A model generated the notes under the pieces. The model was not told where the DNA came from, did not search any database, and saw nothing but the letters and a program-made list of their open reading frames with translations. The position numbers and the translations under genes are program-made. DNA of 62,488 nt, the filler included, from Kipferlia bialata (lineage: Eukaryota), in NCBI GenBank assembly GCA_003568945.1. It is 7 parts of 7 records of this genome, joined end to end, with 100 filler letters (N's around TTAATTAATTAA, not from the genome) between each part and the next. Parts side by side here need not be neighbours in the genome. Positions count along the whole stretch, not along the records: positions 32,803 to 43,622 come from BDIP01001348.1; 6 more parts are not named here. The stretch is one strand, 5' to 3'. This document shows, piece after piece, positions 37,992 to 42,818 of the stretch (positions within the stretch are counted from its first letter, which is position 1; every line of letters starts with the position of its first letter).

Positions 37992-40900
37992 GTATATATA
38001 CCTCGATAGGCAGTCTCTCACCCCCCAGGTCTGCTGTCCAACCAGTGCACCGTTATGTTTGTATATATATATATATATATACATATATGTGTGTGTGTGT
38101 GTGTGTGTGTGTATACATATATCGATAGGCAGTCTCTCACCCCCCAGGCCTTCTCTCCAACCAGTGCACCGAGATGACAGACAAGCTCAAGCAGGCTCAG
38201 GAGGTACGGGTTAGCTCTGATTGCGTATATGCTTCCTTGCATTATCTCCGGAATCTATGTGTATTCTCCCATATGGAAGACCAGCTACCTGCACGTATAT
38301 GTTACAACGAGTATGCATCCCTTCCACTCACCCCCCAGACCCTTGCCACCCGGGAGGCCGAGTGCCTTGAGAGACAGGAGGTGGCAGACAGACTGAAGGC
38401 ACAGGCAGATGCACTCAAGTCAGGTGATATATATATATATATATATATTTNNNNNNNNNNNNNNNNNNNNNNNNNNNNNNNNNNNNNNNNNNNNNNNNNN
38501 NNNNNNNNNNNNNNNNNNNNNNNNNGAGAGAGAGAGAGAGAGAGACAGGAGGTGGCAGACAGACTCAAGGCACAGGCAGACGCCCTGAAGTCAGGTACAC
38601 CTTCAGTGTTATATACTTCGCCTATATTGTTGAAGACACATACATATATACCTTGCATGCCCCAGGCCCACCCTCGAGGCAGTCCATTCAGTATACTATT
38701 GCATGTCTATATACATATTTATATGTAGAAATTTCTTACCCCCCAGGCTCTGGCCGCACCCTCGAGGCAGCCCATTCATAAGAATTTTTTGCCTATCTAT
38801 ATGCATACACACATATATATATATGTATATATGTGTGTATACTACTCACCTCAGGCTCTGGCCGCACTCTCGAGGCAGCCCATTCATAATACTCTTGTCT
38901 ATATATGTAGATATATATATTAATATATGTATATTGCTGACCTCAAGGCTCTGGCCGCACCCTCGAGGCCGCCCAGGAGGAGCTGGTGCAGCTGGAGAAG
39001 GCACTCAAGAAGCTCACGAAGGTATTTATAGAGTATACTATGAGTCCTATATGTATATAGTATTAATATGTGCTATATAATGCACATATACGTATGTAGT
39101 GTGCTGATGTCAGGCCAAGGCCAGTGCCCAGCGTGACAAGGCGGCCAAGCAGGCACAGCTGGAGAGTGCCACACACAGCATAGAGGAGTCAAAGGCTAGG
39201 TGAGTAGAGACATATATATACAGTATACCTATATATATATATATATCTATGATGTGTATAACCTCTGTTGGAGAGTGCCACACACAGCATCGAGGAGTCC
39301 AAGGCTAGGTACAGGGAGTGTGTATAGTCTTAAATTGACATATGTTTAGTAGGTATTGTAATGTATAATATGCAAATTGATATGTCAATACTCATTCATA
39401 GTCTGTCCAAGCTGCTGGAGGACATCTCTGCCCTGACTATGCACTAATATATATCTATCTGTCTATTTTTTATTAGTATCTCTATCTGTTCTCCGTACAC
39501 TTACCTTAGCCTCTCAAAGCTGCTTGAGGACATCTCTGCCCTCACCCTCCAACAGAATGAGGCACGTGCCTTATGCAACAGGCTGAGTGAGCAGAGCATG
39601 ACTGCCCAGGCTGCTCTCGATGCTGAGACATCGAGGTATGGGGGATATACTGATACTACTTGGTAGTATGTGTATATATTGTGTCTTGAGTACATTCCAC
39701 GCCTTACCCCAGGGTGTCCAAGACGAGTGGTGATCATATATATATTAACATGTCTATTAATATATTTATATATATTTATATCCTCCTCTGACCCCAGGGT
39801 GTCCAAGACCAGTGGTGATCTGAACAGCATCAATAGGAGTCTAGGCCACATGACCAAGGAGCAGCAGGAGATGGAGAGGTATGTATATTGGTGTATTGAA
39901 ATACATATATTTCATATGGGTACTATATGTATATACTTACACATAACCAAGGAGCAGCAGGAGATTGAGAGGTATGTAGATTGGTGTATTGATATGCATA
40001 TACTTCATATAGATACTATATGTATATACTTACACATGACCAAGGAGCAGCAGGAGATGGAGAGGTATAAATATAGATGTGATGGTGTATATAAGTGTGA
40101 ATATATGGGAGTTACTTGTTTGGCCTTCTCACCCCCAGTGCCCGTCACAAGGCCAAGGACACCCTGAAGAGGAACAAGGAGAGCGTCCAGAGGATCAAGT
40201 GAGTGACTTGCAATGAATGCATACATGATCACGCCAGTATGTTTATATTTATTTTATTTAGTGTCTATTCATATGTGTATCTCTTAGTGCCCCTCACCCC
40301 AGGGCTGCTCTGAAGGAGGTCAGGCAGACCAACCCCAGCATCAAGGTATGGGTTGCATACATGTGGATATTGTATCAAGTTTCATGGATAGCGTATTGTG
40401 TTCATTGTATATGAATCACTAGTGTGTACCTTCCCTCACCCTCAGGAGTGGCCCTCCGATGGCGATGTGTCCATGGATGGAGAGGACGAGGAGAGTGCAG
40501 AGGACATGAGGCAGAGGTAATATACACAGTAGTGTTCATATATATATGAATGTAGTATAGCATACAAACGAAATGACCTCTCTGTGTACCTATTGACGTG
40601 GGGAGTCTGTGGAGAGGCTGAAGCAGGGGTAGCGTGATATACTGTGTATGGGGGACACTATCTACTGTGATATTGGAGATGTCAGTATATAGGGGCATAT
40701 GCTCTTCTAATATCCTGGTTGGACACTATTACTGAGGAAATCGATACTCTCCTACTCATTTCATATGTGTACATTCATTCAGTCTATCAGTCTATATATC
40801 TCTAATGCCCAGGTTGGACACTATCACTGAGGAGATTGACACTCTGTCCAAGGGACTCGACAAGCACGGATCGGCAAGGTATACTGACACAGCATACATA

Positions 40901-42818
40901 GAGCGAGATATATCTATGCGTCTTTGTGTATGTGTGTGTGTGTACCTATCCCTCACCCATAGGTACGACCAGCTGGCCAAGTCCTGTTCAGAGCTCAATG
41001 ACAAGAGGGCCATTCTCAAGCAGGACAAGGTGTGAATGTTTCGATACACTTGAAACTCCGCCTGTCACTACCACTAATCTAATGTCCTGTACTGTACCAG
41101 ATACATATTCTTCTACTAGTATTCTTCTACTATTATTAATACTTCTTATACTAACCCCCAGGACAAGATCGTCGAGTTCATTGCCGAGGTCAACGCCAAG
41201 AAGGTCGCTGCTCTCACAGAACTACACGGACAGGTACAACAACCGCGTAAGTACTTACTCTCCTTCTACCCAATATTCCCTCTAATCATTAGGTCAACAC
41301 CGACCTGCGCCGCATGTTTGACAAGCTGATCACTGGAGCTGTGGCCAACCTCACCTACATCGACGAGGCAGACATCACAAAGGGCCTGCAGTACGAGGTA
41401 TATTACACGTTTAATACTTCTCTATCTTGGAGCTTCAGAGCATACAGTACAAGGTATAGAGTTACTATATATTACTGTATATATATATAATACTGTAGAT
41501 GTGGGTGGGTTAATAGGTCTCATTGTAACCCCCAGGTGCGTCTTCCCAAGACTGGCCAGACTGGGCTGGATGGACTGTCTGGGGGACAGAGGTCACTGCT
41601 GGCACTGTCACTCGTGATGGCACTCTTGAAGGTATAGTTTAGTCTATATCTATATATATGCATGGGTGTAGTGCTGTAAAGTGTATATATCAATATGTAT
41701 GTATAAATATTCATATGTGCATGGATATATCAATGTGTATAGTAAGGTATATATCTCTGCTGGCACTGGCACTGGTCATGGCCCTGCTCAAGGTGTGTTT
41801 ACATGTGGTATATGTACAGACATAATGTATATATAGATACTGATCATAGGTCCGCCCTGCCCCCGTGTACACCTAGACGCTCGATATATATCTTATACAT
41901 AATTATGTATTGTGAACACTAACCATAGGTCCGCCCTGCCCCCGTGTACATCCCAATTGGTATATACCTAGCGTATATATACTGTTATATATGTATACTT
42001 CCACATCAATACTTATACCCCAGGTCCGCCCTGCCCCCGTGTACATCCTTGATGAGGTCGATGCTGCCCTGGACCTCAGTCACACCCAGCACATTGGGGA
42101 GCTCATCAAGCAGGAATTCAACAGTACGTATAGTATATATATACTATATAGTGTATACACTAAGCACTATATATTATACATATACATACTATATACTCAG
42201 TCACACCCAGCACATTGGGGAGCTGATCAAGCAGGAGTTCAACATTATAAATATATATAAATATAGTATCTATAATACCACATACTATATATGATATTGT
42301 CTCGGAATGGTGCCTCACCCATAGCTAACCCTCAGACTCCCAGATGTATATCTTCATATAAATATCTTTGTCACTATACCCTCACCCCCAGACTCCCAGT
42401 TCAATGTGGTATATGTATTCTCATATATTGTCTCTATATATGTGTGTGTAGTTGTGTATAACTTTGTTGCCTCACCCCCAGACTCCCAGTTCATCGTGGT
42501 CTCCCTCAAGGAGGGCATGTGGTCCAATGCATCAGTGCTATACAGGTTGGGTCTAGTTATAGACAGTATATATATACTATATATACATATATATATGTTT
42601 ATTATTGCTGTGCAAGGAGGGCATGTGGTCCAATGCATCAGTGCTCTACAGGTAGGGTTTATGTGTTGTTATGTAGTCATGCGTAATTAATGCAGTGTAT
42701 GTGTATATTTGTAAAACATTTTTTCCGTTTGTCAATGTATTAATGACTTTCCTCTCACCCCAGGACCAATGTTGAGATGGGCGTGTCCAATGTCACCAGG
42801 TTCGGTAACCAGGACTAG
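32818..42818 (+). CDS. SMC2: Condensin subunit SMC2, 5' partial
   Basis: Hinge [10 protein letters not shown]...[14 protein letters not shown]...[10 protein letters not shown]...[19 protein letters not shown]-terminal [73 protein letters not shown]..., stop TAG at 42816-42818. [20 protein letters not shown] is SMC2-diagnostic. Confidence 0.95.

What the first reader, a model, noticed from the sequence alone, without database searches (positions are those of the whole stretch)
39120..42545. Nested splice-site grammar: donor echoes first, acceptor echoes last; true sites are the outermost
In the introns traced, the order is trueD - echoD(n) - echoA(n) - trueA. Examples: D 39199, echoD 39270-39308, echoA 39402, A 39510; D 41632, echoD 41754-41792, echoA ~41850 and ~41929, A 42024; the same holds in RABGGTA 58027-58744. 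No AG...GT pseudo-exon is formed, but the spliceosome must skip several consensus-quality branch/acceptor and donor sites. Inference: either strict exon definition in a short-intron genome, or inside-out nested (intron-within-intron) splicing in which the innermost echoD-echoA pair is removed first.
Basis: partly seen in the sequence, partly recalled or inferred. Interest (0 to 1): 0.75.

Follow-up and report, generated by a model that had tools for sequence, protein, structure and literature searches.

The report
Exon-end echoes inside Kipferlia introns
In the free-living protist Kipferlia, half of the introns examined carry short copies of the neighbouring exon ends, splice signal included, which the messenger RNA of the one gene checked skips; the copies differ from the exon mostly at silent codon positions, so they are likely leftovers of other working alleles pasted in during DNA repair.

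Summary
The region is the SMC2 gene of Kipferlia bialata. Of 139 modelled introns, 69 hold 14-70 nt copies of the adjacent exon end with its GT or AG (122 echoes). All 23 introns with both kinds put donor echoes first, but that order is simple geometry: each copy sits beside its source. Nested splicing cannot be the rule, because 46 of 69 introns have only one kind. An RNA contig uses the outermost sites and the exon's own letters. Echo sites score about as well as true sites, which points to exon definition despite ~95-nt introns. Echoes differ from exons at 22.6% of fourfold sites but 4.5% of zero-fold sites (ratio 0.20; neutral decay gives ~0.5), and donor-side intron flanks are unrelated even beside identical echoes. 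They most likely come from other functional alleles, through repair begun by homology and ended by end-joining (inferred). Closest known: amphioxus 'mirages' and human F7 intron 7, where whole units repeat. This scan noted similar repeats earlier in sea urchin and annelid genes. Verdict: new variant, interest 0.66.

The parts
32936..42820 (+). SMC2 gene, 34 exons modelled (5' part lies beyond the scaffold end); 20 of 33 introns hold echoes
   Evidence: Model translates to a protein identical to NCBI K. bialata Smc2, 898 aa; RNA contig positions match at 7 of 7 checkpoints from 33954 to 41293; Pfam SMC_N hits on the two exons 41536-41631 and 42024-42122, below the curated cut-off
39200..39509 (+). 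Intron 21, order D-echoD-echoA-A
   Evidence: the RNA piece for the next exon starts at the true acceptor with 0 other letters
39269..39308 (+). Donor echo, 40 nt, GT intact, 2 synonymous and 0 nonsynonymous codon changes
39402..39437 (+). Acceptor echo, 36 nt, AG intact, 5 synonymous and 0 nonsynonymous
39713..39735 (+). Acceptor echo in acceptor-only intron 22 (39636-39797); no inner donor exists
39940..39971 (+). Donor echo in donor-only intron 23; its unit shares intron sequence with the true donor unit, so this one looks like an ordinary tandem duplicate
40033..40064 (+). Second donor echo of intron 23, identical over 32 nt, with a different intron flank
40718..40750 (+). Acceptor echo, AG changed to TG, 4 synonymous and 0 nonsynonymous
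41632..42023 (+). Intron 31, order D-echoD-echoA-echoA-A
   Evidence: its RNA joint was not among the rows shown; support is the identical annotated protein
41754..41792 (+). Donor echo, 39 nt, 6 synonymous codons and 1 Ser-to-Ala
41850..41871 (+). Acceptor echo, identical over 22 nt, different branch/acceptor sequence
41929..41953 (+). Acceptor echo, identical over 25 nt, different branch/acceptor sequence
42196..42244 (+). Donor echo in intron 32, 49 nt, GT lost, 2 synonymous
42392..42410 (+). Acceptor echo in intron 32 (a shorter one near 42336 is below the threshold)
42613..42651 (+). Donor echo in intron 33, 39 nt, 1 synonymous
58027..58744 (+). RabGGTase-alpha-type intron with three donor echoes (58086-58138, 58192-58243, 58295-58346: 7, 6 and 6 synonymous, 0 nonsynonymous codon changes, each echo different) and two acceptor echoes (58491, 58620)

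Best explanation
The echoes are intronic copies of the adjacent exon ends that the main SMC2 mRNA skips; they are likely stranded ends of other, once functional alleles, left by DNA repair that would start on a diverged homologous chromosome and finish by end-joining, and they are likely ignored because the spliceosome pairs sites across whole exons. Shown: geometry, outermost splicing in SMC2, equal site strength, synonymous bias, unrelated flanks. Inferred steps: (1) a break near an exon end is repaired by invading a homologue, where only exons still match. (2) Synthesis copies the exon end, the splice site and about 70 nt of intron, cannot re-anneal, and is end-joined, doubling a ~95-115 nt unit whose two exon parts come from different alleles. 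(3) Repeated events add units next to the exon, so the farthest echo is the oldest; some units are later doubled from the sister chromatid. (4) Only events that leave no complete AG...GT unit survive, and a lone donor or acceptor has no cross-exon partner. My odds: exon definition about 0.75, origin from diverged alleles about 0.55.
For: RNA: 12 of 12 displayed RNA joints lie at outermost sites, 7 of them across echo-bearing introns; 7 of 7 length checkpoints match; no differing RNA letters are listed. Divergence: fourfold sites 147/650, zero-fold 118/2618, ratio 0.20 (bootstrap 0.14-0.27; binomial p=8e-14 against 0.5); it holds in fixed windows and for each of the four bases. Simulated neutral echoes give 0.48-0.55. 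In arrays, changes private to the nearest echo are still synonymous-biased (10/95 vs 10/425, p=0.001), which a simple duplication ladder does not predict; the farthest echoes show more zero-fold decay (26/425). Flanks: 0 of 13 near-identical donor echoes and 7 of 27 acceptor echoes have a flank like the true one. Local repeats are anchored on exon ends: 120 echo-related hits against 2 intron-only. Only 8 of 106 echo-site products would be in frame and stop-free. Metamonads lack Ku-dependent NHEJ and fornicates lack Rad51A (PMC8516963 passages).
Against: No second allele was seen. The DNA run shows one base difference over 9.3 kb, P0121 has a single member, and two metagenome scans found no close relative. 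The donor alleles and a synonymous diversity near 0.2 are therefore inferred, not observed. The pooled echo-private test (p=5e-4) is confounded by the array tree, and the near-echo test rests on 20 changes. Total divergence does not rise with distance (7 vs 7 of 22 arrays). The 30 nt after true donors are more AT-rich (GC 0.23) than after echo donors (0.33) or in plain introns (0.36), which copying an ordinary intron does not explain. Echo junctions are not enriched for microsatellites (30 of 122 vs 35% background). The complexity filter would hide TA-rich intron duplicates. Exon definition is not tested directly; 5'-to-3' scanning could account for donors but not for acceptors.
Confidence: 0.55

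Rival explanations
1. Ordinary 'mirage' minisatellites: same-chromatid tandem duplication across a splice site, then neutral decay, with TA-rich intron parts scrambled by slippage and the true exon later exchanged with other alleles.
For: It gives the same geometry. Some units share intron sequence and are clearly of this kind (for example 39847/39940 and 56899/56957). 62 of 122 echoes have no amino-acid change and 38 no synonymous change. Known from amphioxus.
Against: Without allele exchange it predicts a ratio near 0.5, not 0.20. Complex, non-repetitive flanks differ wholly beside echoes identical over 32-43 nt. Intron-only duplicates are nearly absent.
Confidence: 0.22
2. Echoes are still used in protein: as silent cassettes swapped into the exon at DNA level, or in a minor RNA form, so selection acts on their codons.
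For: It explains the protein-level conservation directly (13 echoes with >=4 synonymous and <=1 nonsynonymous codons). GT is intact in 47 of 52 and AG in 62 of 70. Contigs drop minority forms.
Against: The RNA contig shows only exon letters; no DNA joint that skips an echo is among the rows shown (15 rows hidden). Ordinary splicing to echo sites is mostly out of frame or stopped. Exchange frequent enough to be selected should also erase the synonymous differences (my reasoning).
Confidence: 0.1
3. Nested, inside-out splicing: the inner echoD-echoA pair must be removed first.
For: Inner distances are intron-like (41-170 nt) and inner sites score well.
Against: 46 of 69 echo introns have no inner pair; 11 of 23 are unbalanced; no co-occurrence. 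Some inner sites have lost GT or AG. Unlike stwintrons, the inner unit interrupts no outer splice element.
Confidence: 0.04
4. Remnants of duplicated, mutually exclusive exons that later lost one half.
For: It would give long selection on the codons of both copies.
Against: It predicts exon 3' ends upstream and 5' ends downstream of the exon as often as the reverse; no genuine case among 143 introns.
Confidence: 0.04
5. Assembly artefact: two haplotypes of a diploid strung together.
For: The genome paper calls the strain diploid from k-mer peaks. A few exact duplicates beside N runs do look like assembly overlaps. Run X1 may be the source sample.
Against: Separately assembled DNA contigs run through echo junctions at depth 373-444 with 0-1 differences (33160-34143, 34188-35412, 35454-36301). 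One array holds four different versions.
Confidence: 0.03

Closest known systems
Amphioxus 'mirages' (Adh3, globins BflGb6/BflGb9, troponin C, PGBD5); PMC3087553 passages and supplement 4, PMC3902484 passage
   Same: Tandem copies spanning an exon-intron boundary, at 5' or 3' sites, with AG/GT kept in many units and normal splicing; origin called unclear.
   Different: In BflGb6 the whole unit repeats, intron part included (81-100% identity). Here usually only the exon part and the site match. Mirages are reported from a handful of loci; here 69 of 139 introns in one window, both kinds often in one short intron. The passages read give no synonymous-site analysis.
Human F7 intron 7 37-bp VNTR; PMC1557585 abstract
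   Same: The first unit spans the exon-intron border; downstream pseudo-donors are competent but silent; the most upstream donor wins.
   Different: One locus, donor side only, pseudo-sites identical in sequence, explained by 5'-to-3' scanning. Scanning cannot explain why the last acceptor wins here.
Intron gain by tandem duplication of an AG|GT site (Rogers model); PMC3265369 passages
   Same: Intragenic duplication spliced out with the protein unchanged.
   Different: There the new intron holds the downstream exon part first and the upstream part second, the reverse of the order here, and a new intron position appears. Here existing introns grow.
Stwintrons and nested or recursive splicing; PMC7138796 abstract
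   Same: Extra splice sites inside an intron; donor duplication proposed as an origin.
   Different: A stwintron's inner intron interrupts an outer splice element and must go first. Here outer elements are intact and most echo introns have no inner pair.
One-sided invasion / synthesis-dependent repair finished by end-joining; PMC9299229 and PMC4888836 passages, rest recalled
   Same: The proposed source: one end copies a homologous template, the other is joined without homology.
   Different: Described at induced breaks and in gene targeting; I found no report of it as a genome-wide source of exon-end copies.

Membership tests
Mirage (exon-intron boundary minisatellite) | [quoted passage not shown] | tested here: met
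   122 echoes anchored on the splice site, period median 113 nt (donor) and 95 nt (acceptor)
Mirage (exon-intron boundary minisatellite) | Units keep AG/GT but normal splicing is undisturbed | tested here: met
   GT 47/52, AG 62/70; RNA contig uses the outermost sites in SMC2
Mirage (exon-intron boundary minisatellite) | Whole unit repeated, intron part as similar as exon part | tested here: not met
   Flank similar in 4 of 52 donor and 14 of 70 acceptor echoes; 0 of 13 near-identical donor echoes, unlike BflGb6
Mirage (exon-intron boundary minisatellite) | Copy-number polymorphism or somatic instability | not testable with these tools
   One sample, contigs only; no other strain found
Stwintron / obligatory nested intron | An inner donor-acceptor pair in every such intron | tested here: not met
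   23 of 69 echo introns have both kinds
Stwintron / obligatory nested intron | Inner intron interrupts an outer splice element | tested here: not met
   Outer GT, branch motif and AG are continuous in the modelled introns
Stwintron / obligatory nested intron | Splicing intermediate with the inner intron removed | not testable with these tools
   Only assembled contigs, which drop rare forms
Exon-definition splicing | Strong unpaired sites are ignored and sites flanking a complete exon are used | tested here: met
   Equal site scores with outermost usage; SMC2 only
Exon-definition splicing | Site mutation causes exon skipping rather than intron retention | not testable with these tools
   Needs mutants or raw RNA reads
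Rogers-type intron gain | Intron made of downstream-exon copy followed by upstream-exon copy | tested here: not met
   Order is the reverse in 23 of 23

The most novel reading that the evidence does not exclude
Kipferlia introns are a live archive of alternative exon ends. A repair route without Rad51A or Ku stores ends of other alleles beside every second splice site, and these silent cassettes are copied back into the exon often enough for selection to keep their codons, while a reduced spliceosome reads the gene purely by exon definition.
Probability: 0.12. Interest if true: 0.9.

Novelty: new variant of a known kind. Interest (0 to 1): 0.66.

Why it matters
Short-intron protists and fungi are thought to pair splice sites across the intron, which works up to about 250 bp (PMC2397502 passages). 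Kipferlia has ~95-nt plain introns and only 87 of 174 searched spliceosomal proteins, with no snRNA candidates found (PMC6679479 passages), yet it skips nearer sites of equal strength in the same exon context. If the window is typical, its 124,912 introns hold tens of thousands of natural decoy experiments on splice-site choice. If the echoes are captured alleles, one genome would also record past allelic diversity and outcrossing in a lineage sampled once, and show how introns grow and turn over without transposons.

Tried and rejected
No whole genome was held, so there is no genome-wide count; the window is seven unrelated scaffold pieces and serves as the sample. No run is on record as RNA; X2 is treated as RNA because one contig is spliced. 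Parts without DNA cover (39313-39622, 40863-41172) say nothing, so the DNA check rests on upstream SMC2 introns. A MORN-protein search did not name the organism; an SMC2 exon did. Two metagenome scans found no other Kipferlia allele (best 65% identity). Microsatellite enrichment at echo junctions: not found. Snap-back synthesis: spacers have slightly longer inverted repeats than shuffles (+1.2 nt) but so do cores (+0.6), inconclusive. Distance-age gradient by total divergence: none. A possible old echo near 40593-40628 (20 of 38 identical) was not counted. The echo array at 13930-14234 (true exon in a gap), arrays at gene ends (10581-10797, 55451-55722, 48266-48475) and genes at 44-47 kb and 60-62 kb were left out of all counts. 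The codon table used to seed gene prediction included one training gene out of frame; models were then curated for open frames and GT-AG. Gao and Lynch 2009 and Canestro 2002 were not held. Mutation-bias and detection-bias explanations of the synonymous excess were tested and rejected.
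Full report
What the region is. The window is seven scaffold pieces joined by linker gaps. The finding lies in an SMC2 gene. One exon matches a single database protein, Smc2 of Kipferlia bialata, and my 34-exon model translates to exactly that 898-aa protein. A spliced contig of run X2 matches the model at 7 of 7 position checkpoints from 33954 to 41293, and all 12 RNA joints displayed are at the outermost sites; 7 of them cross echo-bearing introns (15 joint rows were not shown). 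No differing letters are listed for that run. DNA contigs of run X1 pass through upstream echo junctions at depth 373-444 with 0-1 differences, so the echoes are genomic, although X1 may be the source sample.

The observation. I modelled 139 introns in 11 gene pieces; only SMC2 has RNA support. An anchored scan found 122 echoes in 69 introns: 52 copies of the upstream exon's 3' end (median 37 nt) and 70 of the downstream exon's start (median 28 nt). Two genes had none in 32 introns, and a third none in 4 tested. All 23 introns with both kinds put donor echoes first. Wrong-way copies gave 3 hits at the same threshold, none genuine on inspection.

The order is geometry. A copy of an exon's 3' end lies just behind that exon and a copy of a 5' start just before its exon, so the order follows, and the only copy attached to a whole exon is the outermost. 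Nested splicing cannot be required: 19 introns have only donor echoes, 27 only acceptor echoes, 11 of the 23 mixed ones are unbalanced, and the kinds do not co-occur (p=0.23).

Splice-site choice. With matrices trained on echo-free introns, intact echo donors score 8.31 against 8.30 for true donors; acceptors score 12.5 against 13.6 (p=0.07). 41 of 47 and 50 of 62 exceed the 10th percentile of true sites. Plain introns have a median of 94.5 nt, and the inner echo pairs span 41-170 nt, so pairing across the intron should favour them. It does not happen in the main SMC2 mRNA. I infer pairing across exons: few echoes have a partner site (4 of 70, 5 of 52; no null computed), and the echo at 33438, which has a strong donor right behind it, has lost its AG. 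Sequence after true donors is more AT-rich than after echo donors (GC 0.23 vs 0.33, p=1e-5), which may help. McGuire et al. (PMC2397502, passages) propose intron definition for fungi and most protists; Hudson et al. (PMC6679479, passages) found 87 of 174 spliceosomal proteins in K. bialata.

The real oddity. Echoes differ from their exon at 147 of 650 fourfold sites and 118 of 2618 zero-fold sites, a ratio of 0.20 (0.14-0.27). A copy decaying neutrally beside a constrained exon gives 0.48-0.55 in simulation, with transition and AT bias and my detection step included. The excess holds for each base. In the 58027-58744 intron three echoes carry 7, 6 and 6 synonymous and no amino-acid changes, each with its own set, one a TCA/AGC serine switch. 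Changes private to the nearest echo in arrays are synonymous-biased (10/95 vs 10/425); for the farthest echo they are not (8/95 vs 26/425). Intron flanks are unrelated to the true flank in 13 of 13 near-identical donor echoes and 20 of 27 acceptor echoes. Using an echo site would give an open frame in only 8 of 106 cases, so ordinary splicing does not put echoes into protein.

Mechanism. The simplest reading is that echo and exon come from different functional alleles. I propose repair that invades a diverged homologue at the exon, copies past the splice site for about 70 nt (spacer medians 76 and 70.5 nt) and is closed by end-joining, stranding the old exon end. Metamonads lack Ku-dependent NHEJ and fornicates lack Rad51A (PMC8516963, passages); that fits but proves nothing, and the end-joining status of K. 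bialata is in a supplement I did not read. Against this reading: no second allele was seen in the DNA run or in two metagenome scans; the AT-rich spacer is unexplained; junctions show no microsatellite excess; total divergence does not rise with distance. Some units are plain sister duplicates. Confidence 0.55. Rivals: classic mirage with later allele exchange 0.22, echoes still used 0.10, nested splicing 0.04, decayed alternative exons 0.04, artefact 0.03.

What is known. Earlier notes of this scan led me to amphioxus 'mirages' (PMC3087553 passages and supplement 4; PMC3902484 one passage) and the F7 intron 7 repeat (PMC1557585, abstract). These work alike: boundary copies with silent sites. 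In the one mirage alignment I saw, the intron part repeats with the exon part, which is not met here for most units. Rogers-type intron gain (PMC3265369, passages) gives the reverse order. Stwintrons (PMC7138796, abstract) need an interrupted outer element. PMC3488318, PMC4888836 and PMC9299229 were read as passages. The genome paper (PMC5874029, passages) has no occurrence of 'duplicat' in its main text. Searches showed no report of these echoes in Kipferlia; the library lacks most subscription journals, and the original mirage paper and Gao and Lynch 2009 were not held.

Verdict. Observation confirmed; exon definition likely; nested splicing not needed; a new variant of the mirage kind, marked by its density, exon-part-only similarity and protein-level conservation. 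Interest 0.66.

Noticed in passing
window 38424-38947: The modelled true acceptor is a rare AAG, while the upstream acceptor echoes at 38747 and 38855 have canonical CAG sites; summed RNA lengths fit the AAG site.
   Followed up: partly
window 33438-33459: An acceptor echo followed at once by a strong donor has lost its AG, as expected if complete pseudo-exons are selected against.
   Followed up: partly
window 21882-32702 and 52072-54473: Three genes with GC-richer, more complex introns have no echoes, whereas echo genes have TA-rich introns; the cause is unknown.
   Followed up: partly
introns with donor echoes, whole window: The 30 nt after true donors are more AT-rich and purine-pyrimidine alternating than after echo donors or in plain introns.
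   Followed up: partly
window 343-368 and 463-488: An intronic copy of an exon interior lacking the first 24 nt and the AG, probably an eroded acceptor echo.
   Followed up: no
window 2483-2515 and 2576-2651: Copies of the intron part next to an acceptor without the exon part; the only intron-only repeats found.
   Followed up: no
window 40593-40628: Possible very old donor echo with conservative amino-acid changes; 20 of 38 nt identical, below threshold.
   Followed up: partly
window 9621-9728 and 48369-48475: Exact duplicates joined by 2-3 N look like assembly overlaps; the echo at 9685 may be counted twice for this reason. The echo at 38594 lies behind a 75-N gap.
   Followed up: no
window 18285-19328: Intronless MORN-repeat gene with strong codon bias among intron-rich genes; best database hits 56-74% over part of the length.
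   Followed up: partly
window 45000-47400: Long, nearly intronless reading frame with repeated W-rich modules that recall helicase-associated domains (recalled, not tested).
   Followed up: no
window 4685-5100: Degenerate coding repeats inside a 965-nt exon (GEG..EP.L motif).
   Followed up: no
window 10842-10941 and five similar places: N44-linker-N44 joints mark concatenated scaffolds, most about 10.8 kb long.
   Followed up: yes
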